A DNA stretch of 64,000 bases from an uncultured Ruficoccus sp. (GCA_965140785.1 OZ223497.1:128001-192000), one strand, 5' to 3'. Positions 4,548-57,449 are shown, counted from the first letter of the stretch. The notes: a model not told the origin generated them from the sequence alone. A program made the numbers and translations.

Positions 4548-4666
4548 TGCATGTACCATTAATTTTTAGAGAGAAGATTTGAAACAACAAGCTTACCTAT
4601 TACTGACCATGATGGCTGGCTGGATGAACCGTCAGCAGCAGCAAGTCATCGACTATTTGGTCGAGG

Positions 4667-4708
4667 TACCGAACTGAGGCGTAGCCTCGGTGACAAAGCG
4701 TAGCGCCC
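4667..4708 (+). repeat. 42-nt hairpin mini-insert 'a'
   Basis: TACCGAACTGAGGCGTAGCCTCGGTGACAAAGCGTAGCGCCC; identical at 35978-36019 and 50767-50808; empty site GAG GAA AAT CGT near 17022-17033. Confidence 0.9.
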
Positions 4709-5459
4709 AAACCGCATTCTCCGTGAGCAACTCGACATCCATGCCAAAGGCAAGCGCATCCGTTTCAATGCGACCCAGCGCAGACGCTTGGCCGAGAAAG
4801 GCCGTTGCTTGGGACGCAAGTTGCTGATGAATATCGCGACGCTGGTGACGCCGGAGACGATCTATCGTTGGCATCGCCAATTCGTCGCAATGGCTTATGG
4901 TCCGAAGGGTAGGGATCATTCCGTTGTCCATGCTCGGCGGGCCGAGCGCAATGCGCTCATCATCAAGCTTGCAGTTGAGAACTCAGGCTGGGGATACACG
5001 CGCATTCAGGGCGTGATGCAGAATCTCGGTTATCCCAAGCTGAGCACTTCGACCATCGGGGAGGTGCTGCGAGAGGCAGGTATTCGCCCGTCGCCGGAGC
5101 GTAGCAGTCGTCTGGACTGGAAGACGTTTATCCGTGTTCATGCCGATCAACTTGCGGCTACGGATTTCTTCATGGTGCCGGTATGGACGTTGCGTGGCCT
5201 GGCCATGTATCGGGTGCATTTCGTGATCGACCTGCTGACACGCAAGGTGGAGATCACGCACATCGGTTGCCAATACTCGGGCGAATTGATGCTTCAAATT
5301 GCCCGGAACCTGACGGATGCGTTCGAGGGATTCCTGACCGGCAAGAAATACCTGCTGCACGATCGGGATACTCTCTTTACAAATGTGTTCCGCGAGTTGT
5401 TGCGCAGTAGTGGCACTATCCCTTTCAGGCTTCCTGTGTGCATGCCGATGATGAACGGC

Positions 5460-5484
5460 GGGCGCCTACGCCAGCCCGCCCGGC
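5460..5484 (-). repeat. 24/25-nt palindromic mini-insert 'b'
   Basis: Inserted in the N-G-Y-A-E motif; 24-nt in-frame version at 36771-36794, whose reverse complement ends in GCGTAGCGCCC like insert a. Confidence 0.8.
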
Positions 5485-5518
5485 TACGCCGGGTGCTTCG
5501 TTAAGTCGATCAAGCGTG

Positions 5519-5555
5519 TACCGAACCTGCGAAGCGGCGACAAAGCGAAGCGCCC
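5519..5555 (+). repeat. 37-nt hairpin mini-insert 'c'
   Basis: TACCGAACCTGCGAAGCGGCGACAAAGCGAAGCGCCC at the expected Glu of SIKRECL (net +36 nt, in frame); near-identical at 36829-36865. Confidence 0.85.
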
Positions 5556-5973
5556 ATGCCTGAACAAGATGATTTTCTTCAGCGAGGATGCTCTGCGGAA
5601 AGCCATCAGCGAATACGTGCTGCATTACCATCATGAGCGACCGCATCAGGGCCGCGATAACAAAATCATCGAGCCGGATGTAGAAACCTTTCGCAATCAG
5701 GGCCCGATCCGAAAAATCGCACACCTCGGAGGGCTCCTGAATCACTACTATCGCGACCCATTACCCAAAATTGAAGAAGAGGAGGGTCGGGCCGCATGAG
5801 CTTTTCCGGTAGTTACTTTTCTTCAAAAAATGCCCGAATTCGATGCTCGGGTGACTCCTTCCCCATCGACTCATATGCCCTGAATCGGCAAAATTATGGG
5901 CGTATGATTTCGTCCTCCAACCTGCAAACGAAAGGATTCTTGGCACGCGCAAGTGACTGAGCGATGCGCGTCC

Positions 5974-6089
5974 ATGCGACTGCGTGCAACGCTACTGATT
6001 TAATTACGCCTTAACTCGAAAATGAATGAAGTTGCTGTATGCTGGTAATCAGCGACTTACGATAGGCCGTCCGCGTCCCGCCACCTCCA
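5974..6089 (+). repeat. att-like repeat copy A ending in a tmRNA/tRNA-Ala-like 3' end
   Basis: ATGCGACTGCGTGC...CCTTAACT...AAGTTGCTG-N12-CAGCGACTT...CCGCGTCCCGCCACCTCCA; homologous to 17078-17184 and 57305-57421. Confidence 0.8.
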
Positions 6090-6129
6090 GGAGACAACGG
6101 ATTGCCGTTTTGAAAACGTTTGCCGCCTA

Positions 6130-6804
6130 TTACGCTTTGCGACGCTTGAAGCCAAGGATGCCCGCCAACGGGATCGCAATCAGAAGCAGCGTACTGCTGT
6201 CCGGCTCTGGAATACTCTGCGCCACGAAGTTAACAGGTGCTCCAGTTCCGGCACTCCAGGCGGCGGTGGTTCCATTGTCATTCCATTGCACCAGCGTGGT
6301 TCCGTTAGAGGATTCGGCCTGATAGAAGTTCGTCAGTGCATTAGAGACGAATGAGATGACGATGGAATAGGTCTCGTTGTCGGTGAGCGTGTAGGGCGTG
6401 GTCAGATCGAAAGTCATATAACTTTCGCTATCGTAGGTGGTGCCCGTGGCACCCGTTTCGCTGTGGAGAGAGGTGATTGGGAGCTTGGTTTCAGCGTCCG
6501 CGCTGTAGATATCGAGGCTCAATTCGGTTCCTGACGCCAGTGCAGAGGAGGCGACAAAAAACGTGATTTTATCAAGGGCCACCGTTTCGCCAGCGGTGAA
6601 AGTGATGCCGACCTGGCGAACATTGTTTGTGTAGTTGCGCAACTGAATGTTGTACTCCTCGCTGCTCACCACGGTGTTCTCGAGAAAGACATCTTCGGAG
6701 GGCAGCGTGTCAGTGTAGCTGATGTTGAGCGCATTCAGAGTGGAGGCAGCGCCCAATAGGGTCAGTGCGGTCAGAGGAACGAGATATTTGTTGGCTGTTT
6801 TCAT
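6130..6804 (-). CDS. PEP-CTERM sorting-domain protein (module A)
   Basis: Signal peptide; C-terminal IPEP + hydrophobic helix + KRRK. Confidence 0.9.
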   Translation of the reverse strand: MKTANKYLVPLTALTLLGAASTLNALNISYTDTLPSEDVFLENTVVSSEEYNIQLRNYTNNVRQVGITFTAGETVALDKITFFVASSALASGTELSLDIYSADAETKLPITSLHSETGATGTTYDSESYMTFDLTTPYTLTDNETYSIVISFVSNALTNFYQAESSNGTTLVQWNDNGTTAAWSAGTGAPVNFVAQSIPEPDSSTLLLIAIPLAGILGFKRRKA

Positions 6805-6929
6805 ATCCGTATGTATTGCTTTGGAGTATTAGTTGGCCTGAGCCAGATTAGTTAATGGCCAAATTTCCACAGATGGTCGTTTGGCTTTGAGCGATAAAGA
6901 TTACCGAAAACTGGATTATTGCGACATGT

Positions 6930-6939
6930 TACACGTGTA
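6930..6939. promoter_or_regulatory. Module A operator TACACGTGTA
   Basis: Perfect palindrome upstream of the PEP-CTERM gene; variants at 7043, 10751, 11080, 14370, 14437, all intergenic. Confidence 0.7.
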
Positions 6940-7086
6940 GTTTCTTTTGTCAACAGCATAAAGACATGGGTTTTGAGGATATTTATTTTAAACCACAAGA
7001 TACTGTTTTTAAGTATCTTAATAAACCGATGCGATAAAGGATTCACGTGTAATAAAATAGCGTTTTCTCGATACGAACGTCATTAT

Positions 7087-10000
7087 TCATTGGGTGTCTA
7101 TGACATCGAAATTGATCGGCTCCATTGGCTCCAGCCGAATCTCGTCGAGCGTCGGTTCCACGCGCGGGAAGATGTCTCGGACAGCAAGGGCTTGGCCCTT
7201 GGCGTCCACTAAGTGGAAGGCGACGGGGCTCTGTCCCAGGTTGATTGCGTAGCCGATTGTTCGACCGTTCACGTTGACGAAGCGGGCTTCTACATGGTTC
7301 GGTGCCGAGCCATTGGCGGTGCGCAGCGAGTAGGGCGCTTCGATGCCAGCCTGGAGCAGCGCGTCGGGAAGGGATTGGTTCAGACTGGCAAGGGTGCCAT
7401 CATCGATCCTGATGGCGGATTCCAGGGTGAGGGGCGGCAGGAGTTTATCCGCTTCGTCGCGTGCCAGGCTGTCGCTGCCGATCAGGATGAGGCGGACGCC
7501 GCGCTGTTCGAGTTGTGCGAGGGCATCCGGCAGTTGCGCTGAAACATGGATTGTTCGCGGAATGATCAGGGCCTGAAGATCGTTTGGAATGTTACCGGCG
7601 AGCAGGTCGCTTTCCGCAAGAAAACCGATGGACTGGTTTTGAAAGTACAGTGCCTGGTAGGCATTTTCGAGAACACGCTGGGAGCTGGTTCCGTCGTAAA
7701 TGCGCGCGGTCTGTGAGTAGAGGATGCGCGCGGGGCGGGGTGCTTCGTAAAAATGCCGGACCCGGTCCATCACGCTGTTGATGCGGATGCTTTCACGCCC
7801 GTATATACTCATGACCAGAGGCATAGTGTCCTGAGCATGCTTGAACCATTGCGCGCCTTCCCCGGCCTGCCAGAACCAGATCGATTTGTCCCGGCTGAGT
7901 GTCCACAGGTTGGCGGCGTTGAGTCCGTGCCAGGCGGCGAGCCAGAGGCTGGCACGCATATGCTCCGGGGTCGAGGGAGTGGCGTGATATTCGTTGTCTA
8001 GGATCGGCTGTTGCGGTGCGAGGCTTTTACACAGGTCAAAGGACATGGACTGGTTGCGCCACCCCAGGGCATAGGGGCCATCGGGTTCGTCCGAGACCTC
8101 GTTGTCGCCCCCGTGAGCGTCGGTCATCTGATTGATGAGAAAGCGGTCGTAGCCGTTGTCGATGCGGAATTTGGGCAACCAGCTGTGGCCGTTCATAACC
8201 TTGATGGAGGTGCGGATCTGATGGTCAGGGGCGGCGCTTTTTGCGATGTCGCCGGTCCGGGACCAGAAATCGAAGAAGCGCTGGTTGTTGAAAGTGAGCC
8301 AGTCATAGCGGCAGACAGGATGCGTGGGAAAAAGCGCGGGAAAGTTTTCGGTAGCGGCGAAGTCCGGATAATCGGTTCCCCAGGCGGCGTTGAGTGCGGC
8401 GATATTGTGGTAGCGTTTCTTCATCGCTTCGAGGAAGTTCTGCCGGGTGCGTGCGCTGATGGTTTCGATGGTGGGCTCGTTGGAGAGGTCCCAGACAACG
8501 ATATCGTCTATCAGCTTCGGGTATTTTCGCGCGAACATCTCGAAATAACAGGCGGTGGCCTTGGCCATGAACTCACGGACTTTTGGATGGTCCGGGTCGT
8601 AGTCCAGGAAATGGTTTCCCTTGAGCTTGGCATCGGGAAAGCTCTGCCCGAACCAAAGGGGGAGCTGGTTGTTGAGGACGAGGATGGAGGTGGCGATATT
8701 GTGCGCAGAGTTATTTCGCAGGGCATTCACGTCGAGGATAAGATCGACGGACGGGTCGATCGTGAGTTCGGGATCGCCGGGGACGAAATATCGGGTCGTT
8801 ACGCCGGAGATCACCTCGTAGTTGATGCCGAGGTTGTTCTTGGTCTCGCCGGTAAAATACTGGATTTTGCTTGAATAGACCTGGCCGGACAGGAAGACCG
8901 CTGAGCCGTTGGACGTGAGCGTTCCCTGATCGTAAACGATGTCAGTCACAGGTTTAACAGGAAGCAGGTGGTAGTTCCCGCTGCGGATTTCACTGAGGGC
9001 CTCGTCGAGCACGCGATCGACATCCTGGAGTTCGCGCAGGGCTAGGGTGAAGCGTTTTTCAGCCTGATCCTCCTTGATGTAGCGGTTGATAAACAGGTCC
9101 GAGACCTGCCAGGAAACGACCAGTTCCAGTGGTCGCTCAGGCCCTTCGCCTAAGGTGTCGATTGCTTTTTTTAACTGGGTCAGTTTGGTCCGGACCTGCT
9201 CGGTGAGCGGGTCGATTCGGGCCATTAGCGAAGCTGCGGAGTAGTGGTTGATCGTGACGATTTTTTCGCTGACTGTGCCGTCGATCAATTCGACGCGAGC
9301 AGCTAGCAGGTTGCCGCCATCCTGAAAATGATAAGCCGGGATGGTGAAGGCCAGTTCGGTTTCGCCGGGAGTGAAGGTGATTTCGCGCTTGTCGATCACT
9401 TGGCCGTTTAGGGTCACCGAAATACTCGCCTCGGTTTCCAGATAGCCCGTGCCGAAAATGGCGAACTGGTAGTCCTCGTGGCCGTAGAGGTCAGCGTCCG
9501 ATCCGACCACGCCCGCCGCGAAACCGGTGTCCTCCTTGTCCAAAAAAAGTATTCCGAAATCGGCCGGGTTTTTTCGGTCACCAATGCCGGGCGTCCACTG
9601 GATGAACGAGCGTTTCTCTCCGTCGCTGTCATTGACAAGCAGGTTGAACCCGAAGGCGTTCAAGTCCTCGTAGGCGACGGAGGTGATAGCTCTCCAGGGG
9701 ATTGCCAGCTCGTAGGTCGTGATTTGCGTCTCCGGGTCATGGCGCACCTCATACGAGGTGTCCCCGATGGGTGTCGGGTGGTCGGGCGGTTGGAAAAACG
9801 GATAGAGCAGTACGCCCTTCGGAGTGGCGGCTAGGCCGAACTCATAATCGTCGTGCGGGTTGAGCTGGTTCACGGAGCGGTCCCATTGCGTGTCGAAGGC
9901 GACTTGAAGGCTGTCAGCCTTCCAGAGGTTTTCGTCGTGGTAAGGTTGATACGGGGCCGGGTCAGTGACCTTTGTTTCGCAGTAAAAAGCCTCATCGTCG

Positions 10001-10710
10001 AAGGAGAGTCGAGCGACGGCCTCAAGTGGAGGGCTCCCTATTCTTATCAGGCCGTCCGGGGCGAACACGCTGTCCCGGCGGGGGACTAGCAGCGTCCGGG
10101 CAAAGGTGTTCGAATGGTGCTGGGTAACCGTAATCGGGGCTGCGCGCACGACGATGTCTTTGAGACTGACGATGCCGTCTGCATGGCCAAAAACAAACAC
10201 CAGGGTATAGTAATGAACATCCGGGGGGACGGTGATATTAACCTGCTGGTGTGTCCACTGTTGGGACTCAAAGTAGGTGCGGTAACTCGCCGGTTCTATC
10301 CGTTCCGAATACCGGGTCACTCCAGGTTGCTCGGAGAACCAGCCAGAGGTATTGAAGTGCGCAGCTTCGCCGTCAATGGGGCTGAGCGAGTTGATCTTCA
10401 CCTGGTAGCTTACTTCGAGTTTCTGTCCCTGCAGGTTCTCGACGGGAAGGTCAGCGATTCTGATCCCGGCCCATGGGGTAGATTTCTCATGTTTGTCCAG
10501 GGTGATCACCAGTGGCTCGTCATCGCCAAAACTGAGCCGCGTGCCTTTTCCGTAGGTCTGGATTGCCCGGACATCGGCGGTCAGGTCAAAGAGGGGCGCT
10601 GGGGTTGCCAGGGCGGCCAGAGAGATGATGCGAAAAAAGACTAGGGCGAGGGCAATTCGAAGGATTGTTTTGCATACGGGGGCAGGGGGGGCTTCGGCGG
10701 GATTATGCAC
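7087..10710 (-). CDS. Secreted multidomain glycoside hydrolase: CBM9-like sugar-binding domain + GH42-like (clan GH-A) catalytic domain
   Basis: DSLQVAFD...GFNLLVNDSDG...NPADFG (CBM9-like); WDLSNEP, KRYHNIAALNAAWGTDY, DNEYH. Confidence 0.75.
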   Translation of the reverse strand: MHNPAEAPPAPVCKTILRIALALVFFRIISLAALATPAPLFDLTADVRAIQTYGKGTRLSFGDDEPLVITLDKHEKSTPWAGIRIADLPVENLQGQKLEVSYQVKINSLSPIDGEAAHFNTSGWFSEQPGVTRYSERIEPASYRTYFESQQWTHQQVNITVPPDVHYYTLVFVFGHADGIVSLKDIVVRAAPITVTQHHSNTFARTLLVPRRDSVFAPDGLIRIGSPPLEAVARLSFDDEAFYCETKVTDPAPYQPYHDENLWKADSLQVAFDTQWDRSVNQLNPHDDYEFGLAATPKGVLLYPFFQPPDHPTPIGDTSYEVRHDPETQITTYELAIPWRAITSVAYEDLNAFGFNLLVNDSDGEKRSFIQWTPGIGDRKNPADFGILFLDKEDTGFAAGVVGSDADLYGHEDYQFAIFGTGYLETEASISVTLNGQVIDKREITFTPGETELAFTIPAYHFQDGGNLLAARVELIDGTVSEKIVTINHYSAASLMARIDPLTEQVRTKLTQLKKAIDTLGEGPERPLELVVSWQVSDLFINRYIKEDQAEKRFTLALRELQDVDRVLDEALSEIRSGNYHLLPVKPVTDIVYDQGTLTSNGSAVFLSGQVYSSKIQYFTGETKNNLGINYEVISGVTTRYFVPGDPELTIDPSVDLILDVNALRNNSAHNIATSILVLNNQLPLWFGQSFPDAKLKGNHFLDYDPDHPKVREFMAKATACYFEMFARKYPKLIDDIVVWDLSNEPTIETISARTRQNFLEAMKKRYHNIAALNAAWGTDYPDFAATENFPALFPTHPVCRYDWLTFNNQRFFDFWSRTGDIAKSAAPDHQIRTSIKVMNGHSWLPKFRIDNGYDRFLINQMTDAHGGDNEVSDEPDGPYALGWRNQSMSFDLCKSLAPQQPILDNEYHATPSTPEHMRASLWLAAWHGLNAANLWTLSRDKSIWFWQAGEGAQWFKHAQDTMPLVMSIYGRESIRINSVMDRVRHFYEAPRPARILYSQTARIYDGTSSQRVLENAYQALYFQNQSIGFLAESDLLAGNIPNDLQALIIPRTIHVSAQLPDALAQLEQRGVRLILIGSDSLARDEADKLLPPLTLESAIRIDDGTLASLNQSLPDALLQAGIEAPYSLRTANGSAPNHVEARFVNVNGRTIGYAINLGQSPVAFHLVDAKGQALAVRDIFPRVEPTLDEIRLEPMEPINFDVIDTQ

Positions 10711-11137
10711 TTAAGGGATTGCTGGAATGAGTGATGCCGCGTAAACATGCTACACATGTAACATGAGTGTCAATCCCATTCTCGGACTTTTGCTTTTGAC
10801 GTGAATGCAGGGGAGGCGAGTAACTTTGATTTTTTGTTCGTCGATTTAGGGAGATCACGCTTGGCTCACGCATCTATGTCCGCCTCTAGCGAGGATTTAT
10901 GCTCGATAATAATCGTTTATTGGTCGTTGATTGAATACGTCGTCCGTGTGTTTTGCTAGGGGTTGAAAATCCAAAAATCGCTTTACCCTGCTGAGATTCG
11001 TGAGTGGAAAAGCAAGGCTTTTGTTTATTAGCATGTAGCATAATCGGGTTTTGAATGCGGCATGGATTTCTTGAAATGGAACACGTGTAATAATTCGGGT
11101 TGACTTCTCCTTGTGAGTCATCCAAACTTTGACCTGT

Positions 11138-11848
11138 ATGATACCCCAACGCAAACGTCAGGCGTTTACGCTGATAGAGCTTCTCACAGCTGTTGCGGTG
11201 ATTGCCATCCTGGCCTCCGTACTTTTTTCTGCGATCATGAGCGCGCTTAAGCGAAGTCGAGAGACGCAATGCGCGTCCCGGTTGAGCAACATCGGTCAGG
11301 GCGTCATGCTGTACGCGCAGGATCACAACATGTATTTGCCCGGCCCTCTCAGCAGTGTGGCTTTCGGCGGATGGTACTCCACGCCGCGCGAGAAAGACTA
11401 CACCTACGGAAATTTGCTGGGGAGCTTTGTCGCTCCTTATATGGAAATGAATCTGCCGCCGGAGGAGGAAGGGTTCCAGTCCCGTTTTTCCGAAAACTTC
11501 GTCTGCCCGACCTGGCTGGATGAGGTCGGTGAGGCGGCGAGCGATCCATCGAATTGGATGAACACCTGTTACGTGGTACAAAAGCGGATTATCGTGGACG
11601 GTCAGCGGGTCGGGATCCTAAAGCCGTGGGGCAACCCGGTGGGAACACCTTGGGATGAGAGTTCGCCGTTGAAACTGTCGAACTTGCAGGATACCGCCAA
11701 CTACTGGATGATCACGGAGCTGGACACGGCCGGGAATCTCGGTGCGACCGCTTCGGTGGCCCAGCCGGTTCACGAGACTTTTCGCAACACGTTATTTTTT
11801 GACGGCCATGTAGAGGCTGTGCCTACGAGCCAGTCCATGTATCCCTGA
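11138..11848 (+). CDS. Prepilin-type N-terminal cleavage/methylation + H-X9-DG protein (module A)
   Basis: AFTLIELLTAVAVIAILA; C-terminal HETFRNTLFFDGHVE. Confidence 0.9.
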   Translation: MIPQRKRQAFTLIELLTAVAVIAILASVLFSAIMSALKRSRETQCASRLSNIGQGVMLYAQDHNMYLPGPLSSVAFGGWYSTPREKDYTYGNLLGSFVAPYMEMNLPPEEEGFQSRFSENFVCPTWLDEVGEAASDPSNWMNTCYVVQKRIIVDGQRVGILKPWGNPVGTPWDESSPLKLSNLQDTANYWMITELDTAGNLGATASVAQPVHETFRNTLFFDGHVEAVPTSQSMYP

Positions 11849-11854
11849 TCGCCC

Positions 11855-13054: not shown

Positions 13055-13074
13055 GAAATGCCACCAGTCCGGGG

Positions 13075-48202: not shown

Positions 48203-48213
48203 GGAAACATGTC

Positions 48214-48900: not shown

Positions 48901-49463
48901 TCCCTTGGTGCCGTCCGCGCTTGGAGCGCCTCGCCGCGTTTGGCGGAGACGTTAGTCGGCTGCAAGCCAAAGTCCTTCTTCGTTCATCCGAGGGCGTTAT
49001 GGCATCCTGCCGGCAAGGTGCCAGGCAAATACATGACCTGATGCTGCCTGGAATGCCGTAACCCTCGAATCGATCTTACGCGATACGTCTGGGCATGCGA
49101 TGGAAGGGGATTGCCTGGGCACTGTACGCAAACCTGCTCAGGCCACATCCTGGTGTGTGTTTGGGTCTGAATTTCGTGTCCTCGTCTCAGCAATTCTCAG
49201 AATTGTCTCACCGCAGAGGCGTCAGGCATCGTGCTGCCGGGGCCATTGGCACGCCTTGAGTTATGCGGTTCCAGCTATACGCCTTATGGCATCGGGGGAC
49301 GACCGGATTGTAACGCTACTCGTCCTCGCAATATCCCTCCACCTGAGTCGAAGGGTCGGCGGTTATGATTGGCGAGCGGTGGCTGTGCCTCGACCCATGG
49401 TGGAGTTTACGTAAACTCTTGTCTTTGCCGGTTTGGTGAAGTACATTCGGACTTAATCGCCCC

Positions 49464-50519: not shown

Positions 50520-50590
50520 AGTCAATATGCGCCTATCCTACAAATTATCTTCGTCCTCTGGTAAACTTGTCTTTGGGTGTTCGTTTTTCA

Positions 50591-51042
50591 GGTGGGGGAT
50601 GGGGTTTTAGGATTTCTTGTTCCTTCACGGCGACTTATGATTTTTCAAAGTGAGTTTGAACCCGCAAGCTTTACTGTTGTTGAGCATGTTGGCGGGGAGG
50701 GGGAAGCTGCGAAGCGCTGACCTATGAATCGTCAGCAACAGCAAGTCATCGAGTATTTGGTCGAGGTACCGAACTGAGGCGTAGCCTCGGTGACAAAGCG
50801 TAGCGCCCATGCCTGAACAAGATGATCTTTTTAAGTGAAGGTGTTCTGCGGAAGGCCATCAGTGAATACGCGCTGCATTACCATCATGAGCGACCGCATC
50901 AGGGCCGTGATAACCAGGTCATCGAACCGGACGTGGAAACCTTTCGCGCTCAAGGCTCGATCTGAAAAATCGTACACCTCGGAGGGCTCCTGAATCACTA
51001 CTATCGCGATCCATTACCGGAAATTGACGAAGAGGAGGGCCG
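50591..51042 (+). mobile_element. IS copy 3: internal deletion derivative (insert a/c fusion)
   Basis: 5' part up to insert a joined directly to ATGCCTGAACAAG, which follows insert c in copy 1. Confidence 0.85.
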
Positions 51043-51043
51043 A

Positions 51044-51727
51044 TCAATCGCTCTGGTGGTTTAAGGCGTCGAGTATATCAAGGGTGAGGGTGCGAGCGTT
51101 TTTGCGGGAATGGCGTTGGTAGTAGGACGCCACCCAGTTTTTGTGTCCGAGTAGGTGGTTTAGCGTTTTCCACCCCAAGTGCGTGTCCATATAGTTCCTG
51201 ATTTCTTGAATGCGCGCCTGGACTTCGGGCAAGCTTGCGCGTTGGTGTGTAACGATGTTCTTTTCTATCTTTGATACAAAGTAGTATTCGAATTTGAATA
51301 CGTACTTGTGGTTCCAACGGATTTCTCCGGCGCGTTTGCTTTCGGATACCAGTTGGTACTCAAAGTATTTCTTGTAGGTATCTGCCCACGACAAACGCTG
51401 CCACTCCTGATGTGTGAAGCGTTTACTGTGATGGCCGATAGGTTCGATCTTTCGGGTCTGCCCGTTGCGCTGGGTGAAGTTTTTGTTGCGGCAATACTGG
51501 TAGACGTTGATCTGGTGTAAGATCGCCTTGAGGGTAGGGGCGTCCTTCCTGCGCGTTATGTCATCGCGCAGATGCAGGGACCGCACCCAGCCTCGCTGGT
51601 AGGGCTCATCTACTTCGATCAGCGGAGCGTTGTAGTGGGCTTTAAGCAACTGCCTGTACTCTCTTTCCAGAGCCAGCAGGTGCTTATGTCTGGCCGCAAT
51701 TATCCGGCCACGAATATTCGGATTCAT
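51044..51727 (-). CDS. Basic hypothetical protein
   Basis: Open frame with EPYQRGWVR..LRDDI; start placed at MNPNIR; lower GC than neighbours. Confidence 0.6.
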   Translation of the reverse strand: MNPNIRGRIIAARHKHLLALEREYRQLLKAHYNAPLIEVDEPYQRGWVRSLHLRDDITRRKDAPTLKAILHQINVYQYCRNKNFTQRNGQTRKIEPIGHHSKRFTHQEWQRLSWADTYKKYFEYQLVSESKRAGEIRWNHKYVFKFEYYFVSKIEKNIVTHQRASLPEVQARIQEIRNYMDTHLGWKTLNHLLGHKNWVASYYQRHSRKNARTLTLDILDALNHQSD

Positions 51728-52068
51728 AGAATTTATCCACGTTGGATGAGCGATAGCCGTTGCCGGTATCGACAGTGCGCGTGCTCCGAACACGACAAAG
51801 CAGTAGCCGTGTAACGGCTGTTGAGAGTTCAGGAACTAACGCGCGGTTAGTTGATGTTGACGCTTCATGCGGGCGAAAATCCCAGCGGGGAATTTCGCTT
51901 AGAACGTCAAGCTAGTGGATAAATGTAACGACATCTGAAACCTCCTTGTTGAATCAAGGACGGCAGAAGGTTGGAACACCTGTGGCGCTTCGTCAATCTA
52001 TTTGTATTACAAAGTTCTGGTGGCTGAATTTGAGGCACTTCTCTCGTGTCATCTCATCAAACCAGCCC

Positions 52069-54171
52069 TCAGGGCTCCTGATCGGCAAGGGCTATAGGCG
52101 CATAGGTGTGATCGGTGAACGCGTATTTGTCGGGTGGGAACCAGTTCGCCTCAGCAGCGGCCTGGCCCAGCGGAGTATGTGGGCAGCGGATGACGAGAGC
52201 CTGATAAAACGGTTGGGCTGCCTGTGGGTCGCGGTACTTTAACCAGGAGCCAGCGGTGTAAAGCACGTCGGCCGTGTCTTCAGAGTCGTTGGGGAGGAGG
52301 GCGGCGGCCCAGCCGCCCAGTGTGGCCGCTCGGTAGCGGTAGTGAAAGCGTTTCTCGGGAACCGTGTGCTCTTCGATCCTTTGTAATTCGTTTCGTGTCG
52401 GGGCTAGTGGGCCGCGCTCGTAGCGGGCGAGTTCCTGACGTGTCTCGGCGGGGTTTCCGCGAAAGGCAAAGTTGCCCCACCAGATTACGTTGTCGGGAAA
52501 CAGCTCGGTGCCGAACAGTTCCATGCCGTGCTCGTAGGCGAGCGTGGCTGCGATCCAGAACGACGCGGCCCGGTTCTCGGCTGGGTGGTTGCTGTCGTAG
52601 GCCGAACGGACGAGCGCAAGGTAGCGGTCCGCCTCAGGGCGGATGGCTTCGTCGAAATAGGCTATCGCCTCGTCAAAGCGGTTATCTCGCATGAGCCGTC
52701 TGGCGAGCAGATTGCGAAGGTTTTTGCGATTTTCCTGGAGGATACTAGTATAGTAGTTCGCCCAGGAACGTGAGAGCGTATCGGGCAGCGATTCGTGGTT
52801 AGTGCTCATGGACTCATCGACTACGGCTTCCAGGCGATCATTGACATAGGCGACAAGTTCATCTGTGGAGAGGACGCGTTCGGCGATGTAGGCAGCATCT
52901 TCCCAATGTCCACCCAGCAGCCATGCGGTGAGGGCTCTCTGCGGCTCGTCCAGCGCCAGCTCGACGCGGCCCAGTTCGGCATATATGAGTCTGCGGTAAG
53001 GGTTCAGTTCCGGTTCTTTCAGCGCCTTTTGCAGTGAATGTGCCGCCAGCGCGAGGTTACCTTCGCACTGGGCGATTTTGGCAGCTATCCACGAGGCGAC
53101 CTCGGCATCGGGTGGAGCGAGTGCCAGCCACTCTTTGGCTAGCTGAGTGTCGCCGCTTTTATAGGCGAGCCAGGCGAAATTCCCATATTCGTCGATCGAT
53201 GTAATATCTTCTGCGTTAAGCGTCTTCACCCAGCGTTGGCAGGCATGAAGGACTTGCTGGTTGTATTCTTCGTCCCAGTAGTAACGGTCTGTCCCGAGCG
53301 AGAGCAAATAGGCGGTCCAGAGGCGCCGGGCGGTGGCATCGCGCGCAAAATCATCGAATAGGTCGTCTGCTAGATAGTCGTAGCGGGACTGCGTGAAGAC
53401 CTTTTGCATGACCATGCGCAGGGAGTTGAGAGCAGAGGGGGCTCCTGCCTGGTAGTGGCGCAGGTAGAGGTCGGCGGCTTCGGCGTATTGGCTGTCATTC
53501 AGGTACGCCTTTGCCTCCCAGCCCCAACTCGCGTCGCGCATGTCCTGAGAGTCGCTGAAACCCTCGGCGGCGAGTTCGCGAACCTGACGGAAACGTTGAG
53601 TCGCTTCTTCCGGAGTCGTGGCAAGACGCCCCAGCATGTACGCCGCCCAAATGGAGCGGTGCTGGCGTTCGGTGGCGGGTAGGGTGAGAAGTTCTTCCCA
53701 CGCGCGTGCGGCGTCTTCACGATCACCTTGTTTGTAGGAGCGAGCGCCCTCCAGATACAGTGCGAACTCTTCGGGGACGCTGGCCGGCATTTGGTCTTTC
53801 AATTCCTCCGCGCTTAACTCGGTGAGCTGTTCGCGAAGCTTTGCGTAAGTAGCGACAGTTTGGTCAAGCGGTTCACCGGAAAGCCCTTGCTGAGTCAGGA
53901 CGGTTGCCAGTTCCTGAACATCGTCGAGGGCGCTCATGGCTTGGGTACCGCCCGAGTCTTTGGGGCTGTCGGTATCGACTCCAGCGATGAGCGCGACCTC
54001 CTTACCGAAGAAGGCTTCAGGGGCTGCCATGATCTGCTCGGCAGGCGCATCGAAGTAGCGGTTCGGGAAATCCGGCCCGCAGGCGTGGAGGTTCGGTAGT
54101 GTTGAGCCGCCGAGTAAGAGAGCAGTCGCGGTGAGGAGGGAACGGAGGCGCAGTTTTTTTCTAAAAATCAT
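52069..54171 (-). CDS. Secreted alpha-helical/TPR-like protein (ACGPDF type), partner of DUF3142
   Basis: Signal peptide + ACGPDFP, helical repeats, RFHYRYRA; overlaps the upstream gene. Confidence 0.7.
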   Translation of the reverse strand: MIFRKKLRLRSLLTATALLLGGSTLPNLHACGPDFPNRYFDAPAEQIMAAPEAFFGKEVALIAGVDTDSPKDSGGTQAMSALDDVQELATVLTQQGLSGEPLDQTVATYAKLREQLTELSAEELKDQMPASVPEEFALYLEGARSYKQGDREDAARAWEELLTLPATERQHRSIWAAYMLGRLATTPEEATQRFRQVRELAAEGFSDSQDMRDASWGWEAKAYLNDSQYAEAADLYLRHYQAGAPSALNSLRMVMQKVFTQSRYDYLADDLFDDFARDATARRLWTAYLLSLGTDRYYWDEEYNQQVLHACQRWVKTLNAEDITSIDEYGNFAWLAYKSGDTQLAKEWLALAPPDAEVASWIAAKIAQCEGNLALAAHSLQKALKEPELNPYRRLIYAELGRVELALDEPQRALTAWLLGGHWEDAAYIAERVLSTDELVAYVNDRLEAVVDESMSTNHESLPDTLSRSWANYYTSILQENRKNLRNLLARRLMRDNRFDEAIAYFDEAIRPEADRYLALVRSAYDSNHPAENRAASFWIAATLAYEHGMELFGTELFPDNVIWWGNFAFRGNPAETRQELARYERGPLAPTRNELQRIEEHTVPEKRFHYRYRAATLGGWAAALLPNDSEDTADVLYTAGSWLKYRDPQAAQPFYQALVIRCPHTPLGQAAAEANWFPPDKYAFTDHTYAPIALADQEP

Positions 54172-55471
54172 CGGTTGCGTGAACTTGAAGGGAAACGGGT
54201 TGACGAAAGCGGAGCCAGCCGAGCGCGAGGCGTTGGTCGGGGGCGAGCGTGGCACTGGCAGGTAGGGCCTTGGTGGAAATGTGTACGGTGTGCATGTTGC
54301 GGTTGATGGTCATGGTAAAGATGCCGTTGCCATCCCAGGCGATGGGGAGGGCCGTCGGGGTGGCATCCCATGAGAGGCTGATTTCGGGTGGAAAGGACAG
54401 GGCGGTGTCCCCCGTGTTTTCGAGGTAAATCGTGGCGAGACCGTCGCTGCTTTCATTCCATTCGGGGGTTATGCTTAATCTGCGGGTGGGTATTTTCCCT
54501 TCGAGCATGGTCTGGAGTGTGCGCGGGCTCCAGTTGAGGCGATCTCCGGCCACAGGTAGCCGGAACCAGATCACGCCGAGGCAGTGCGCGGGTGGGGCAG
54601 AAGTGAGTTGCTGGGCGAGGCGGGCCATCTCTGTAGGATCGCTGCGAACAACCCGGACGCGAGTGCCCTCTGTCCATTGCGGGCGTGAGCCCTCGGCCAC
54701 GAGTGCCTTGAAGTGTCCCTCGGCGTCGAAAACAACCTCGTAGCCATAGGTCGGCAACGCGACGCGAAAAGGCACACCGACTGTCGAGGCCTGAGCGATC
54801 CAGGAGAGACTTTTAGCCGGGTCGCAGAGCGTGATCGGAGCGTCAAAAGAGGTGGGCTTCTCCAGCGAGTGAACTTGGAGGACAAAGCTGTCGGCCGCCG
54901 TTGCCAGTTGGCGGAACTCAGAAGTATGCCGCAGCCAAACGGGGAGGGCGGTGAAGCTCAGGCGCACGTCGGGAAACGCCCTTCTCAACTCTTGTCGCAG
55001 GGCCAGCAGCCACTTGCGGTAGCCGCTGAGCTTCGACTCTGCGCAGTCGAAGTCCAACTGGAACTCAGTTACTCTGATCCCTTGTGCTTGCGCCGTGATC
55101 AGGAGTCGCTCCGCCTGTGCGAGGATAGCCTTTGCTGCCGTGTCGTCCTCGCTGAACGGCCCGCCGTAGGGGCCGATGCGCATGACCAGCGCGAGCGGGA
55201 CCGAAAGCGCTTTGAGTGTTTGCGCGTCGTAGCTGGTTTGGAAAACTTGCGGCTGCCCCTTGTCGTCCCAGCTTATCTCTGCGGCGAGGATTTGCAGTCC
55301 GTCGAGTTCGGGAGAAATTTTCCTTACACTCTCGACCACCTGCGGCGTCCACTGCCTCTGCCACAGGTAGGCCTCTTGTGCCCAATCCGACCCAAATAGG
55401 CGACAGGAAAGGCCGATCAGGGCAAGCCAGCTCAGGATGCATCCCCAGTTTTTTGCCGACTCTCTTAGCAT
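54161..55471 (-). CDS. DUF3142 domain protein
   Basis: AYLWQRQWT, QLDFDCAESKL, TALPVW, VLQVHS, VALPTYG, GVIWFRLP. Confidence 0.8.
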   Translation of the reverse strand: MLRESAKNWGCILSWLALIGLSCRLFGSDWAQEAYLWQRQWTPQVVESVRKISPELDGLQILAAEISWDDKGQPQVFQTSYDAQTLKALSVPLALVMRIGPYGGPFSEDDTAAKAILAQAERLLITAQAQGIRVTEFQLDFDCAESKLSGYRKWLLALRQELRRAFPDVRLSFTALPVWLRHTSEFRQLATAADSFVLQVHSLEKPTSFDAPITLCDPAKSLSWIAQASTVGVPFRVALPTYGYEVVFDAEGHFKALVAEGSRPQWTEGTRVRVVRSDPTEMARLAQQLTSAPPAHCLGVIWFRLPVAGDRLNWSPRTLQTMLEGKIPTRRLSITPEWNESSDGLATIYLENTGDTALSFPPEISLSWDATPTALPIAWDGNGIFTMTINRNMHTVHISTKALPASATLAPDQRLALGWLRFRQPVSLQVHATDDF

Positions 55472-55789
55472 AAGGTCGGAATGGAGGGCTGGTCGTTACG
55501 CTCGGGGAACATGCCATTATATCAGTGGCAGTCGAGAAGGCGTTTCAAGGCGAAAGCATCCATTGTGAGTAAGTATTTCCCAGCCCACGGCGAAGACCAT
55601 GAAACTGGGTATGTGGAAAGCTATGCGGGCAAGATGTGGTTAACCTCTTCGTCGATCAGACTTTGCTTATGTGGTTGAAGGGGATGTTTCGTTTGCAGGT
55701 AATTTATCTTTTCTCGGAACGAGGCAACGCCTTCGGAATCTTCCTTGGCGAGAGAGGAAAGGGTACGGATCAGTAGGAGACGGCAACGA

Positions 55790-56015
55790 ACATTTGCAGG
55801 GTTACCTTTTCAAGGCACGTCTAGTCCCTATTTACCTGCTGGGAGGAATGCTACTGCTCGCCATGGCGACGCGTGTCAGCGCCGACTGGCTGCCGCTCAG
55901 CCGCATGAATCACTTAGGCTACGCAGCTATTGTCTGGATAGTTGGGCTCGGCATCTGGCTGTGCCGCTTTGGGCCCTATCTGCGCGATGACGTGGAACGT
56001 CAACAAACGATGTAA
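55790..56015 (+). pseudogene. C-terminal fragment of a membrane protein (possibly NnrS-like)
   Basis: LLLAMATRVSADW...AAIVWIVGLGIWLCRFGPYL; no plausible 5' part. Confidence 0.35.
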
Positions 56016-56087
56016 GCTGACGAATATGAACTCTCGGTAATGAGAGTTATATAAAAACTGTCGAGGCAGTGGGGGTGGTCTTCCGAT

Positions 56088-57146
56088 CTACAGGTTCAGC
56101 ATGAGCTGCTGGTACTTATCATCGTCGTAGAATTTTACACCGAGCCCGAGCAGCCGGACGCCCTTCTCACTGCGGGTGTAGGCCTCTTCCAGTAGACGCA
56201 GATAGACATCTATGTCCGGGCGCGGGTAGATGCACTCGCGGGTCGTCTGCTGGAAGTCGCTGAACTTTACCTTCACAACCAGTTTGTGAATGCTGCGGCC
56301 CTCGACTTTAAGTAGGTCCTTTTGCAGTTCATCGTAGAGCTTGTGAATCATCGATAAGCACGCTTCAAGTGAGAGTAGATCCTCCTGGAACGTGCGTTCG
56401 TTGCTGAGTGATTTCCGGATCGTGCTCGGGTCCACCGGGCGCTCATCAATGCCCCGGCAGCGCTGGTAAAGCTCATAGCTGGATGAGCCAAAATGGCGGA
56501 CCATTTTGTCCATCGCCAACGTCTGCAGCTCGCCACAGGTCTGAATACCCAGGCGGGCAATCTGCTCGGTGAGCACGGGGCCCACGCCGGGGATTTTACG
56601 CACCGGCAGGGGTTCGATGAAGGCCCCGACTTGATCGGGCGTGATCGTGTATTGGCCGTTGGGCTTTTTCCAGTCACTGGCGATCTTGGCGAGCATCTTG
56701 TTGGCGGCGATTCCTGCCGAGGCGGTCAGCCCTGTTTTGTCATAAATTCGCTGACGGATTTCCTTGGCAGTCGCGCTGGCGTAGCGCGTCGATGCGCTAA
56801 CATCGAGGTAGGCTTCGTCGAGAGACAAGGGCTCAATCAGATCCGTGTAGTCGTCGAAAATCTGGCGGATATGTAGGGACTCTTTCTTGTAGGCTTCGAA
56901 CCGAGGACGGATAATGACAAGCCCCGGGCATTGGACCTTGGCTCGCATCATCGGCATCGCACTGCGAACTCCGTATTTACGGGCCTCGTAACTGGCTGTG
57001 CAGACCACCGAGCGGGGATTATCTCCTCCCACCGCAATGGGTTTATCTCGCAACTCAGGATGGTCCCGGATCTCAATCGCCGCGTAGAAGCAATCCATAT
57101 CCACATGGATAATCTTACGGGGCGAAGATGTCGGTGTTAGCGGCAT
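56088..57146 (-). CDS. dinB: DNA polymerase IV
   Basis: IIHVDMDCFYAA, SYEARKYGVRSAM, SLDEAYLD, KIASDWKKPNG. Confidence 0.95.
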   Translation of the reverse strand: MPLTPTSSPRKIIHVDMDCFYAAIEIRDHPELRDKPIAVGGDNPRSVVCTASYEARKYGVRSAMPMMRAKVQCPGLVIIRPRFEAYKKESLHIRQIFDDYTDLIEPLSLDEAYLDVSASTRYASATAKEIRQRIYDKTGLTASAGIAANKMLAKIASDWKKPNGQYTITPDQVGAFIEPLPVRKIPGVGPVLTEQIARLGIQTCGELQTLAMDKMVRHFGSSSYELYQRCRGIDERPVDPSTIRKSLSNERTFQEDLLSLEACLSMIHKLYDELQKDLLKVEGRSIHKLVVKVKFSDFQQTTRECIYPRPDIDVYLRLLEEAYTRSEKGVRLLGLGVKFYDDDKYQQLMLNL

Positions 57147-57304
57147 GAGAATATGGCAGAGAAGGAGACTACGGTTCACACTCAGCAACCCGAAAGCCCC
57201 GGCTTGTTAACATGCTCGGATCTGGCTGTGATGCAACTCCGTGGTTAGAGGAGGGGAAATGATTGTATGGACCAATAATGAGGCAGTGCGTTCTCGTCTG
57301 CAGC

Positions 57305-57421
57305 CAACGCGACTGCATGCAACTCAATGACCTTAACTGAGTCTTAACTGGTGAATTGGTTAAGTCGCTGTATGCTGGGAATCAGTGACTTACGAGTGGG
57401 TGACCGCGTCCCGCCACCTCC
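57305..57421 (+). repeat. att-like repeat copy C
   Basis: TAAGTCGCTG-N12-CAGTGACTTA and core CCGCGTCCCGCCACCTCC at 57404-57421. Confidence 0.8.
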
Positions 57422-57449
57422 GCGGTACAGTTTGCGTAGGTAGGTCAAT
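57421..57449. repeat. 29-nt direct repeat (second copy 59353-59381)
   Basis: CGCGGTACAGTTTGCGTAggtAGGTCAAT; 27/29 identical. Confidence 0.8.

What the first reader, a model, noticed from the sequence alone, without database searches (positions are those of the whole stretch)
4548..57449. Array of self-contained glycan-utilisation cassettes separated by an IS + tmRNA/tRNA-like att spacer
Seen: three modules (A 6.1-16.8 kb, B 17.2-35.7 kb, C 37.7-50.5 kb) each carry their own LacI and their own operator (TACACGTGTA; ACGCAACAGTTATCGT-like; TTTACGTAAA). The operator sites I found stop at the module edges. Every border holds parts of one spacer unit: [~75-nt left motif] - DDE transposase - [~110-nt att-like repeat], at 4548-6089, 16848-17184, 35798-37247, 50591-51042 and 57305-57421. 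Inference: complete regulons were acquired or shuffled as cassettes, by tandem integration at an ssrA/tRNA-Ala site and/or by recombination between spacers. This would be an integron-like array at the 10-20 kb scale. No integrase lies in this window.
Basis: partly seen in the sequence, partly recalled or inferred. Interest (0 to 1): 0.88.

Follow-up and report, generated by a model that had tools for sequence, protein, structure and literature searches.

The report
Sugar-operon cassettes separated by tmRNA-mimicking IS
Self-contained, LacI-controlled sugar-degradation gene sets in a Verrucomicrobiota genome are separated by decayed, same-direction copies of one jumping gene whose right tip copies the end of the cell's tmRNA gene, which may explain how such gene sets pile up in arrays.

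Summary
Three modules each have their own LacI and operator motif, confined to that module. All five borders carry pieces of one ~1.5-kb unit.

The unit is a single IS-like element with an rve/DDE transposase, TG...CA tips and short imperfect terminal repeats. The "att-like" 113-nt repeat is its right end. Its last 14 nt exactly equal the 3' end of this genome's own ssrA, which lies on another contig.

A sister subfamily (~50% aa) ends instead in the 3' end of tRNA-Pro. Five Puniceicoccales copies keep the identical ssrA 14-mer.

All 16 copies on contigs C26 and C4 point the same way, and all five window copies are defective. Modules are accessory: B occurs in one congener without the IS, while A and C were not found in four congeners.

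On C4, and in G002 and G003, the element lies downstream of ssrA and co-oriented with it. A tyrosine-integrase island joins both ssrA and the IS end at the same base.

Verdict: an IS-junctioned array of accessory regulons tied to an ssrA plasticity zone, not an integron-like system. Arrays marked by ssrA repeats are known. The RNA-gene-end mimicry of a DDE element appears new. No excision was shown.

The parts
4547..6089 (+). IS copy 1: near full length but defective. Variant left end; rve transposase broken by three short inserts (about 4666-4708, 5451-5473, 5518-5556); right-end repeat R113 at 5976-6089; ssrA-identical 14-mer at 6076-6089.
   Evidence: (rve)
6090..16847 (.). Module A. LacI at 13075-14277(-); GH42-like/CBM9 protein at 7087-10710(-); MGH1-like GH at 11855-13054; SSF symporter at 14535-16835. 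TACACGTGTA-type operators at 6930, 7042, 10751, 11080 and 14437.
   Evidence: Not found in 4 congeners except SSF paralogues.
16848..17184 (+). IS copy 2: internally deleted (left end 16848-17078 joined to R113 at 17071-17184). 14-mer at 17171-17184.
17185..35797 (.). Module B. LacI at 18552-19592(+); IclR at 20560-21342(-); dehydrogenases; heparinase II/III-like protein at 28045-30690; SSF at 31196-32971(-); sulfatase at 33099-34646(-). ACGCAACAGTTATCGT-type operators at 17314, 18542, 19665, 27274 and 35691.
   Evidence: Present in G002:C118:541-17292 without the sulfatase gene and without the IS.
35798..37250 (+). IS copy 3: typical left end, transposase broken by the same inserts (35977, 36828), right-end repeat and 14-mer deleted.
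37251..50590 (.). Module C. Esterase at 37684-38520(-); DUF5010 at 38517-40106(-); GH31 at 40110-42539(-); GDSL/GH36C/fn3 protein at 42632-46414(+); LacI at 49464-50519(+). TTTACGTAAA operators at 42569, 46435, 47288 and 49406.
   Evidence: Not found in 4 congeners except a GH31 paralogue.
50591..51146 (+). IS copy 4: a fragment made by deletion between the first and third short inserts (hybrid insert at 50766).
51147..57304 (.). Segment D, with no LacI. TPR protein at 52069-54255(-); DUF3142 at 54161-55471(-); Y-family DNA polymerase (IMS) at 56088-57188(-).
   Evidence: Parts are found in G002 on other contigs.
57305..57422 (+). IS copy 5: right-end repeat alone. 14-mer with one mismatch (TCCCGCCACCTCCG) at 57409-57422.

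Best explanation
The window is a stretch of an accessory, fast-changing zone of an Opitutales/Puniceicoccales-type Verrucomicrobiota genome. Complete LacI-regulated glycan-catabolism regulons lie between old, co-oriented, now defective copies of one ~1.5-kb transposable element.

The element encodes an rve-type DDE transposase, distantly related to IS481 and IS3. It has 5'-TG...CA-3' tips and ~12-bp imperfect terminal inverted repeats. Its right terminal repeat is a copy of the 3' end of the host tmRNA gene (T-stem 3' strand, acceptor 3' strand and discriminator). In a sister subfamily it is a copy of the tRNA-Pro 3' end.

Shown:
- the anatomy of the element;
- the exact identity of its right tip to ssrA;
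- conservation of that tip across genera, and the switch of RNA gene between subfamilies;
- the common orientation of the copies;
- linkage of the family to the DNA downstream of ssrA in three genomes;
- presence or absence of whole modules between congeners;
- a tyrosine-integrase island joined at the same base to ssrA and to the IS tip.

Inferred:
- The mimicry is functional. It directs the element to the safe zone downstream of tRNA/tmRNA genes, or makes its tip a portable copy of the ssrA attachment core that ssrA-specific integrases can use, or both.
- The array was built by the element's own activity and by recombination between directly oriented copies (composite or translocatable-unit-like moves, segmental duplications, deletions). 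Each junction between regulons therefore carries an IS remnant.
- The window's array is a fossil. Intact transposase genes remain only at C26:80670-81785 and C4:131355-132470.
For: 1. One unit. Thirteen copies align from a common left boundary to a common right boundary that ends exactly at ...CACCTCCA. An intact 372-aa ORF is present in two copies outside the window. It matches rve, rve_3 and rve_2, and IS3 (89.6 bits) and IS481 (87.3 bits), both below the curated cut-offs.

2. ssrA identity. The match is 14 of 14 nt. All 6 non-ssrA exact copies of the 14-mer in the genome are right tips of the unit, each followed by different DNA.

3. Conservation.
- Five copies in two Puniceicoccales MAGs (66-70% aa) carry the exact 14-mer at the homology boundary. 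In two of them the similarity extends to 20 of 21 nt, into the T-loop.
- Their left tip TGGAGGGTGCGG matches the reverse complement of the right tip in 10 of 12 positions.
- The opposite-strand control gave 0 of 79 loci.

4. Switch of RNA gene. Four copies in G013, G014 and G024 (~50% aa) end in ATCCCCGCAGCCCGACCA-like sequence, up to 17 of 18 identical to tRNA-Pro(cgg). One copy lies 640 nt downstream of tRNA-Pro and is co-oriented with it.

5. Family-level preference for tRNA genes. In 10 of 79 family loci a tRNA gene lies 90-720 nt upstream on the same strand; none lies upstream on the opposite strand.

6. Orientation and ssrA linkage.
- 7 of 7 copies on C26 and 9 of 9 on C4 are on the + strand, as is ssrA on C4.
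- G003: ssrA at C14:291249 and an intact copy at C14:361841, both +.
- G002: ssrA at C4:28654 and a solo right end at C4:41901, both +.

7. Transposon-like behaviour. An SDR gene starts at adh_short profile position 55 of 195 directly after the right tip. An integrase fragment (aa 184-270, 93% identity) ends at the left tip at C26:99120.

8. Interplay with an integrase. The same ~170-nt arm begins right after ...CACCTCCA at G003's ssrA and at three IS tips (G000 C4:180345, G000 C49, G003 C14:363250). A tyrosine integrase lies 1.4 kb further on.

9. Accessory modules and recent shuffling. In addition, a 3.3-kb segment next to IS copy 1 is triplicated at 96-97% identity on C26 and C4.
Against: - No target-site duplications were seen (flanks read), and no empty site was recovered in congeners. 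Transposition is therefore inferred, not shown.
- In G000 copies the terminal repeats are weak (about 8 of 12). A search for longer inverted repeats scored below the 95th percentile of shuffles.
- Copies are 75-92% identical, so there is no sign of recent activity.
- Module B in G002 sits in a genome without the transposase and with no IS at its borders. A module can therefore exist and be placed without this IS.
- GC skew is positive on the + strand of both contigs. The common orientation could instead reflect a replication or transcription-direction bias.
- The joints in public contigs (6059>17146 and 17050>4741) each rest on one contig inside repeated sequence and prove nothing.
- The window's array is not linked to ssrA in this assembly.
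Confidence: 0.5

Rival explanations
1. A true additive island array made by an ssrA-specific tyrosine integrase. Each 14-mer is an attachment-site scar and R113 is the island's P arm. The rve gene is a passenger that sat beside attP in the ancestral island. The C26 array is a translocated piece of the ssrA array whose integrases were lost.
For: - G000 has ~90 kb between the ssrA core (C4:90121) and an R113-core-arm-integrase junction (C4:180331). In G003 the same arm and integrase follow ssrA directly.
- G002 has ssrA, then 13.0 kb, then R113-core.
- All copies are co-oriented with ssrA.
- CCTTAACTG-like tandem motifs occur both in R113 and in the arm. Seven of the 14 exact genome copies of that 9-mer lie in these two elements.
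- Pieces of the C26 zone are orthologous to G003's ssrA-linked contig, and a 3.3-kb segment is shared between C26 and C4.
- Published precedent exists: PMC2764846 and 10.1101/2020.12.28.424599 (passages read).
Against: - Only 3 of about 9 right tips are followed by the arm; the others are followed by unrelated DNA, including a truncated gene.
- The modules carry no integrase or arm.
- The unit has its own inverted tips and a sharp left boundary.
- The transposase and the RNA-like tip stay linked across about 50% protein divergence while the RNA gene changes, which is not expected of a passenger.
- C26 has 63-67 kb of core synteny on its left and a tRNA-Ser, not ssrA.
Confidence: 0.2
2. Ordinary IS debris. 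An old IS family inserted into intergenic gaps between operons of an accessory region, because insertions inside operons are selected against, and then decayed. The match of its tip to ssrA has no function, and the common orientation reflects strand bias.
For: - All window copies are defective and 75-92% alike.
- LacI regulons are common in this genome (55 HTH matches), so any spacer would fall between regulons.
- All copies lie on the presumed leading strand.
- Module B exists without the IS in G002.
Against: - The exact 14-mer is kept in copies whose proteins are only 66-70% identical.
- A sister clade carries a different RNA gene's 3' end at the same place.
- The family lies downstream of ssrA in 3 genomes and downstream of tRNA genes in 10 of 79 loci.
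- The order A-B-C is not found in any of four congeners, so the operons were not simply there first.
Confidence: 0.15
3. The DDE enzyme itself moves the cassettes. A left tip pairs with a distant right tip (the next 14-mer) to form a composite or 'read-through' transposon, or IS-plus-cargo circles re-insert next to resident copies as IS26 translocatable units do. That would make a DDE-driven cassette-accretion system.
For: - Every cargo block is bounded by a right tip on its left and a left tip on its right, all in direct order.
- There are no target duplications (flanks read).
- Cargo beside an IS has recently been triplicated.
- IS26 arrays show the same layout (abstracts of PMC4196232 and PMC7885326).
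Against: - There are no identical cargo-plus-IS units at two places.
- No circle joint could be trusted.
- The transposase is not of the IS6/IS26 family.
- The copies are too diverged for a conservative reaction that needs identity at the reacting end (recalled from the title of PMC7885326).
Confidence: 0.12

Closest known systems
ssrA-specific genomic-island arrays of Dehalococcoides (McMurdie et al. 2009, PMC2764846; passages read)
   Same: Direct repeats of the ssrA 3' end (19-20 bp there, 14 bp here) are scattered downstream of ssrA among strain-specific catabolic operons with their regulators. There is sequence similarity around each repeat, and an integration gene block sits next to ssrA.
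   Different: Here every ssrA-like repeat is the terminal repeat of an rve/DDE element. The window's array is not adjacent to ssrA and holds no recombinase. The cargo is LacI-regulated glycan catabolism.
Tycheposons and additive tRNA/tmRNA islands of Prochlorococcus (Hackl et al., 10.1101/2020.12.28.424599; passages read)
   Same: Nutrient-acquisition cargo piles up beside tRNA/tmRNA genes. Partial RNA-gene repeats mark old junctions, and newer elements push older ones inward.
   Different: Tycheposons move by tyrosine recombinases. That preprint's text has 0 occurrences of 'DDE'. Here the repeats belong to a DDE element.
IS26 translocatable-unit arrays and composite transposons with direct IS copies (PMC4196232, PMC7885326; abstracts seen)
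   Same: Cargo segments are interspersed with directly oriented copies of one IS, and no target duplications surround the cargo.
   Different: A different transposase family (rve here, not IS6). The copies are old and diverged. The cargo is whole regulons of 6-19 kb. The mechanism is untested here.
IS481 and IS3 family insertion sequences
   Same: A single rve-type DDE transposase of about 370 aa and TG...CA tips. More distant relatives in the same protein family have ~25-bp inverted repeats and a compact right end.
   Different: Scores are below NCBIfam's cut-offs for both families. There is a ~290-nt 3' region, only ~12-bp imperfect repeats, and a right tip identical to a host RNA gene's 3' end.
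Integrons
   Same: An array of exchangeable functional units separated by a recurring recombination-type sequence.
   Different: No IntI, attI or attC. The cassettes are 6-19 kb with their own promoters, operators and regulators, and the recurring sequence is an IS.

Membership tests
Integron | An IntI-type tyrosine integrase next to attI, with a common promoter | tested here: not met
   None of the genome's 14 PF00589 matches lies on contig C26. The window ORFs show only rve remnants.
Integron | Promoterless cassettes, each ending in an attC hairpin site | tested here: not met
   The modules carry their own LacI genes and operator-bearing intergenic regions. The recurring sequence is a 1.5-kb IS. 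R113 folds no better than shuffles (z -1.4 to +0.35).
Additive tRNA/tmRNA island array (Dehalococcoides ssrA-GEI or tycheposon type) | The array starts at the intact RNA gene | tested here: not met
   ssrA is at C4:89785-90137 and the window is on C26. The C26 variable zone starts after tRNA-Ser at C26:68274-68361. The feature is met for the sister array on C4 and in G002 and G003.
Additive tRNA/tmRNA island array (Dehalococcoides ssrA-GEI or tycheposon type) | Direct repeats of the RNA gene's 3' end at element borders | tested here: met
   The 14-nt ssrA 3' end lies at 6076-6089 and 17171-17184, and at 57409-57422 with 1 mismatch. That is 3 of 5 borders, all in direct orientation.
Additive tRNA/tmRNA island array (Dehalococcoides ssrA-GEI or tycheposon type) | A site-specific recombinase gene in the elements | tested here: not met
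   There is none in the window. One intact tyrosine integrase lies at C4:181727-182926 (PF00589 25.1 bits against a 27.1 cut-off; phrog_1 E 3.5e-16), and fragments lie at C26:98860-99120 and C4:242041.
Additive tRNA/tmRNA island array (Dehalococcoides ssrA-GEI or tycheposon type) | Gain or loss of elements between relatives exactly at the repeats | tested here: inconclusive
   Module B's homology in G002 ends 85-130 nt from the spacer edges, at the outermost operators, with no repeat there. G000 and G003 differ by ~90 kb bounded by the 14-mer on C4.
Insertion sequence with a DDE (rve) transposase | Encodes a DDE/rve transposase | tested here: met
   rve_3 at 44.6 bits (above the cut-off), and rve and rve_2. 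phrog_157 transposase, E 2.4e-17.
Insertion sequence with a DDE (rve) transposase | Terminal inverted repeats | tested here: inconclusive
   10 of 12 in Puniceicoccales copies. About 8 of 12 in G000. No longer repeat scores above shuffles.
Insertion sequence with a DDE (rve) transposase | Target-site duplication | tested here: inconclusive
   None was seen in the flanks read. The copies are old, and no empty site was recovered.
Insertion sequence with a DDE (rve) transposase | Many copies with sharp common ends and unrelated flanks | tested here: met
   About 18 copies or fragments in G000. Six exact tips have six different right flanks. Five Puniceicoccales copies behave the same way.
IS481 family / IS3 family (NCBIfam equivalogs) | Score at or above the curated cut-off | tested here: not met
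   NF033577 (IS481): 87.3 bits against 224. NF033516 (IS3): 89.6 bits against 160.
IS26-type translocatable-unit array | Directly oriented IS copies interspersed with cargo | tested here: met
   7 of 7 copies on C26 and 9 of 9 on C4 are on the + strand, with cargo between them.
IS26-type translocatable-unit array | An IS6/IS26-family transposase carrying out a targeted conservative reaction | tested here: not met
   The transposase is rve/IS481-IS3-like. The reaction itself cannot be tested with these tools.
LacI-family local regulon | A LacI HTH with a periplasmic-binding-protein-like sensor, and palindromic operators upstream of the regulated genes | tested here: met
   PF00356 plus PF13377 in all three regulators. 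The operator motifs are enriched and confined to their modules. Binding was not tested.

The most novel reading that the evidence does not exclude
A clade of rve/DDE elements has turned its right terminal repeat into a copy of the 3' end of a host tmRNA or tRNA gene. This single sequence would serve as transposon end, as a homing signal for the safe zone downstream of RNA genes, and as a portable attB core for ssrA- or tRNA-specific tyrosine-integrase islands. A transposase and an integrase would then jointly accrete whole sugar-utilisation regulons into co-oriented arrays, even away from ssrA.
Probability: 0.2. Interest if true: 0.85.

Novelty: new variant of a known kind. Interest (0 to 1): 0.6.

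Why it matters
Arrays of catabolic cassettes marked by ssrA or tRNA 3'-end repeats are known from Dehalococcoides and Prochlorococcus, where they are credited to site-specific recombinases. Here the repeats are the tips of a DDE transposable element. The same architecture recurs with a different RNA gene (tRNA-Pro) in a sister clade.

If the mimicry is functional, it would be a new way for a transposon to find a safe, universally conserved target, or to seed extra attachment sites for integrase islands. It would also give a concrete, testable route by which marine Verrucomicrobiota assemble and reshuffle polysaccharide-utilisation regulons.

It carries a practical warning as well. Partial tRNA or tmRNA repeats used by island-finding software as attachment scars can be transposon ends.

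Tried and rejected
- **tRNA/tmRNA gene in the spacers.** ARAGORN found 0. Rfam found 0 at gathering thresholds and no tRNA or tmRNA at E<=10. R113 is not unusually structured.
- **First scan for relatives.** A single-protein scan of genome contigs found none. It was repeated with an alignment.
- **Long inverted repeats in G000 copies.** Not significant.
- **Additive island at the neighbouring tRNA-Ser.** No partial tRNA-Ser lies anywhere in the genome outside the gene.
- **Excision, circles or strain variants in public data.** Two runs of one study hold the stretch.
  - The skip 6059>17146 and the back-join 17050>4741 each rest on one X2 contig inside repeated IS sequence, with 39 and 53 letters on the short side. 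They may come from other IS copies.
  - The 4-fold higher contig depth left of IS copy 1 is explained by a 3.3-kb triplication, not by heterogeneity.
- **Empty site for the intact copy at C4:131288-132763.** None was found in four congeners.
- **The 410-aa ORF next to ssrA (C4:90290-91519, -) as an integrase.** It has no Pfam hit and no meaningful similarity to the C4:181727 integrase (E 0.64).
- **Earlier notes of this scan, searched by sequence.** Nothing found.
- **Literature.** Searches (PMC and bioRxiv full text) listed no paper describing an IS or DDE element whose end copies a tRNA or tmRNA 3' end. Subscription journals and ISfinder were not searchable.

Full report
**What is in the window.** The window is G000:C26:128001-192000 of a 4.36-Mb, 50-contig genome. 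Record titles of the nearest transposase relatives place it among Opitutales/Puniceicoccales Verrucomicrobiota.

Pfam annotation of 54 ORFs shows dense glycan-catabolism genes and three LacI-family regulators, at 13075-14277(-), 18552-19592(+) and 49464-50519(+). The matches sit in intergenic DNA of one module only, apart from one weak hit at 26302.

Genome-wide the motifs are essentially private to their modules: 4 of 4 for the module B motif at <=2 mismatches, 4 of 7 for the exact module C motif, and 1 of 1 for the exact module A motif. This is what local LacI regulons look like. The genome has 55 LacI HTH matches, of which 19 (10 on C26, 9 on C4) lie on the two contigs that make up 14% of the genome.

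**The spacers are one element.** Repeat finding, a genome-wide blastn and a 13-copy alignment show that 'left motif', 'transposase' and 'att-like repeat' are parts of one ~1.5-kb unit.
- Two copies outside the window (C26:80638-82078 and C4:131288-132763) keep an intact 372-aa ORF.
- The ORF matches rve, rve_3 and rve_2. Its matches to IS3 (89.6 bits) and IS481 (87.3 bits) are below NCBIfam's cut-offs.
- The five window copies are all defective. Two are broken by the same three short inserts, one has lost its transposase, one has lost its right end, one is an internal-deletion fragment, and one is a right end alone.
- The short inserts (pattern GTACCGARC...AAGCGNAGCGCC) are nearly private to this IS, with 11 of 13 genome matches. 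The fragments at 50591 and at C26:99120 arose by deletion between two of them.

**The tmRNA likeness is real but narrow.** No tRNA, tmRNA or Rfam family is found in the window, and the 113-nt repeat is not unusually structured. Its last 14 nt, TCCCGCCACCTCCA, are nevertheless identical to the T-stem 3' strand, acceptor 3' strand and discriminator of the genome's own ssrA at C4:89785-90137. That 14-mer occurs exactly 7 times in the genome: once in ssrA and six times as the right tip of this unit, each time followed by different DNA.

**The mimicry is conserved, and it switches RNA gene.**
- Five copies in two Puniceicoccales MAGs, 66-70% identical in protein, end in the exact same 14-mer. The opposite-strand control gave 0 of 79 loci.
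- In two of those copies the likeness to ssrA extends to 20 of 21 nt, into the T-loop.
- Their left tip TGGAGGGTGCGG is an inverted copy of the right tip in 10 of 12 positions. The unit therefore has TG...CA tips and short terminal repeats, as a DDE element should.
- In G000 the left tip is more eroded, and no longer repeat is significant.
- A sister subfamily (~50% aa) in G013, G014 and G024 ends instead in ATCCCCGCAGCCCGACCA-like sequence, up to 17 of 18 identical to tRNA-Pro(cgg). One copy lies 640 nt downstream of that tRNA gene and is co-oriented with it.
- More distant relatives (~40% aa) are classical ISs with ~25-bp inverted repeats and a compact right end.
- Across 79 family loci, 10 have a tRNA gene 90-720 nt upstream on the same strand, and none has one upstream on the opposite strand. 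By my own arithmetic, about 0.4 would be expected by chance.

**Link to ssrA and to an integrase.** On C4 nine copies lie 41-152 kb downstream of ssrA, all co-oriented with it. On C26 all seven are co-oriented.
- In G003, ssrA and an intact copy lie 70 kb apart on one contig, both on the + strand.
- In G002, which has no transposase, a solo right end lies 13.0 kb downstream of ssrA and is co-oriented with it.
- In G001 a remnant lies 980 kb from ssrA.
- A conserved ~170-nt arm begins at exactly the same base after ...CACCTCCA at G003's ssrA and at three IS tips: G000 C4:180345, G000 C49 and G003 C14:363250. G004's ssrA is followed by a homologue of this arm.
- About 1.4 kb beyond the arm lies a 399-aa tyrosine integrase. 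Its scores are PF00589 25.1 bits (just under the cut-off), phrog_1 E 3.5e-16, and a best PDB hit to a phage integrase.
- An ssrA-specific integrase island therefore appears to use the IS tip as it uses ssrA. Relative to G003, G000 carries ~90 kb between the ssrA core and this junction.
- The ssrA flank differs in all five congeners, and G003's ssrA zone is a mosaic of pieces found on four G000 contigs.

**Are the modules cassettes?**
- Module B is one block in G002:C118 (86-91% identity). It lacks the sulfatase gene and has unrelated flanks. Homology ends at the outermost operators, 85-130 nt from the window's spacer edges, and no IS is present there.
- Modules A and C were not found at DNA level in four same-genus genomes, apart from paralogues.
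- Core synteny with G001 ends at about C26:63-67 kb. A conserved gene plus tRNA-Ser pair follows, and then the variable zone. No partial tRNA-Ser exists.
- The modules are thus accessory units whose adjacency is specific to this genome, and every junction carries an IS remnant.
- Genes cut exactly at the tips show transposon-type insertion or IS-mediated deletion. An SDR gene starts at profile position 55 of 195, and an integrase fragment ends at the left tip.
- A 3.3-kb segment beside IS copy 1 is triplicated at 96-97% identity on C26 and C4, which shows recent shuffling.

**What was not shown.**
- No target duplications and no empty site were found.
- There is no recent activity; the copies are 75-92% alike.
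- No excision or circle joint could be trusted.
- The common orientation may also reflect strand bias, because both contigs have positive GC skew on the + strand.

**Comparison with what is known.** Arrays of catabolic islands marked by ssrA 3' repeats are described in Dehalococcoides, with 11 repeats downstream of ssrA in strain VS (PMC2764846, passages read). Additive tRNA/tmRNA islands are described in Prochlorococcus (10.1101/2020.12.28.424599, passages read). Cargo interspersed with directly oriented IS copies is the hallmark of IS26 (abstracts). I found no description of a DDE element whose terminal repeat copies a tRNA or tmRNA 3' end. ISfinder and subscription journals could not be searched.

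**Verdict.** The best reading is an IS-junctioned fossil array of accessory LacI regulons belonging to an ssrA-linked plasticity system. The unusual part is the RNA-gene-end mimicry of the IS.

Noticed in passing
window 4666-4708, 5451-5473, 5518-5556; 35977-36019, 36828-36865; 50766-50807: Short inserts of about 42, 23 and 37 nt (GTACCGARC...AAGCGNAGCGCC, with a small hairpin) break the transposase ORF. 11 of 13 genome matches lie inside copies of this IS and 2 lie on C48, flanking a 1.6-kb stretch in inverted order. Puniceicoccales copies have other ~64-70-nt inserts. Their nature is unknown.
   Followed up: partly
window 1249-4542: A segment with a GFO/IDH/MocA oxidoreductase, a Zn-ADH and an ORF of unknown family is triplicated. 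It is 97.5% identical to C26:68874-72179 (just after tRNA-Ser) and 96.4% identical to C4:213874-216227. This is a recent segmental duplication linking the two IS-rich zones.
   Followed up: partly
window 60344-60621: A ~278-nt hairpin-bearing repeat (inverted arms at 60344-60375 and 60590-60621) has at least 7 further copies at 91-97% identity on other contigs, plus one shorter match. It fits the REPIN/MITE-like family that this scan noted elsewhere in the genome.
   Followed up: partly
L027 (G014:C26:1-8000), L028, L026, L030: In the tRNA-Pro-type sister elements, the tRNA-like tip pairs with a segment ~45 nt upstream. The pairing is kept through changes on both sides (CTGCGGGGAT/ATCCCCGCAG against CCTATGGGGAT/ATCCCCGTAGG), which suggests a conserved hairpin at the right end. 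This was read by eye and not tested statistically.
   Followed up: no
L040, L041, L044, L047, L063, L075, L081, L107, L111, L113: Across phyla, relatives of this transposase sit just downstream of tRNA genes of seven different identities, on the same strand (10 of 79 loci). L075 and L041 also show long tRNA 3'-part repeats. This may be a family-wide preference for tRNA-gene-proximal insertion.
   Followed up: partly
G000:C4:90138-106000 (L002) and C4:183684-186840: Next to ssrA lie a 410-aa ORF of no known family, an IS3-type OrfB, and GTA- or phage-tail-like genes (Phage_BR0599, Gp84_N, Rcc01698_C). A second copy of part of this block follows the integrase at C4:184.9-186.8 kb, and G002's ssrA core is joined to the interior of such a gene.
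   Followed up: partly
window 33099-34646: The sulfatase gene of module B is missing from the otherwise collinear G002 copy, so cassettes also change by single-gene insertions or deletions.
   Followed up: partly
window 24947-26321 and 59577-60200: The Fe-ADH ORF at 25416-26321 starts at profile position 91 of 168. The rhamnosidase ORF at 59577-60200 holds only the N-terminal domains. Both may be frameshifted or truncated genes.
   Followed up: no
G000:C26:199032 (-), C26:219224 (-), and C10, C13: Other partial tRNA 3' ends lie elsewhere in the genome: tRNA-Ala-like, 86.6 kb from tRNA-Ala at C26:285656; tRNA-Pro-like at C26:219224; and exact repeats 8-27 kb from tRNA-Gly and tRNA-Met genes on C10 and C13. 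These are probably borders of further islands.
   Followed up: no
window 17185-17192 and G002:C4:29003-29010: The 8 nt after the 14-mer (CGGTGACG) are the same at the window's spacer 2 and at G002's ssrA junction. Three other tips are followed by GTG. This is unexplained and may be chance.
   Followed up: no
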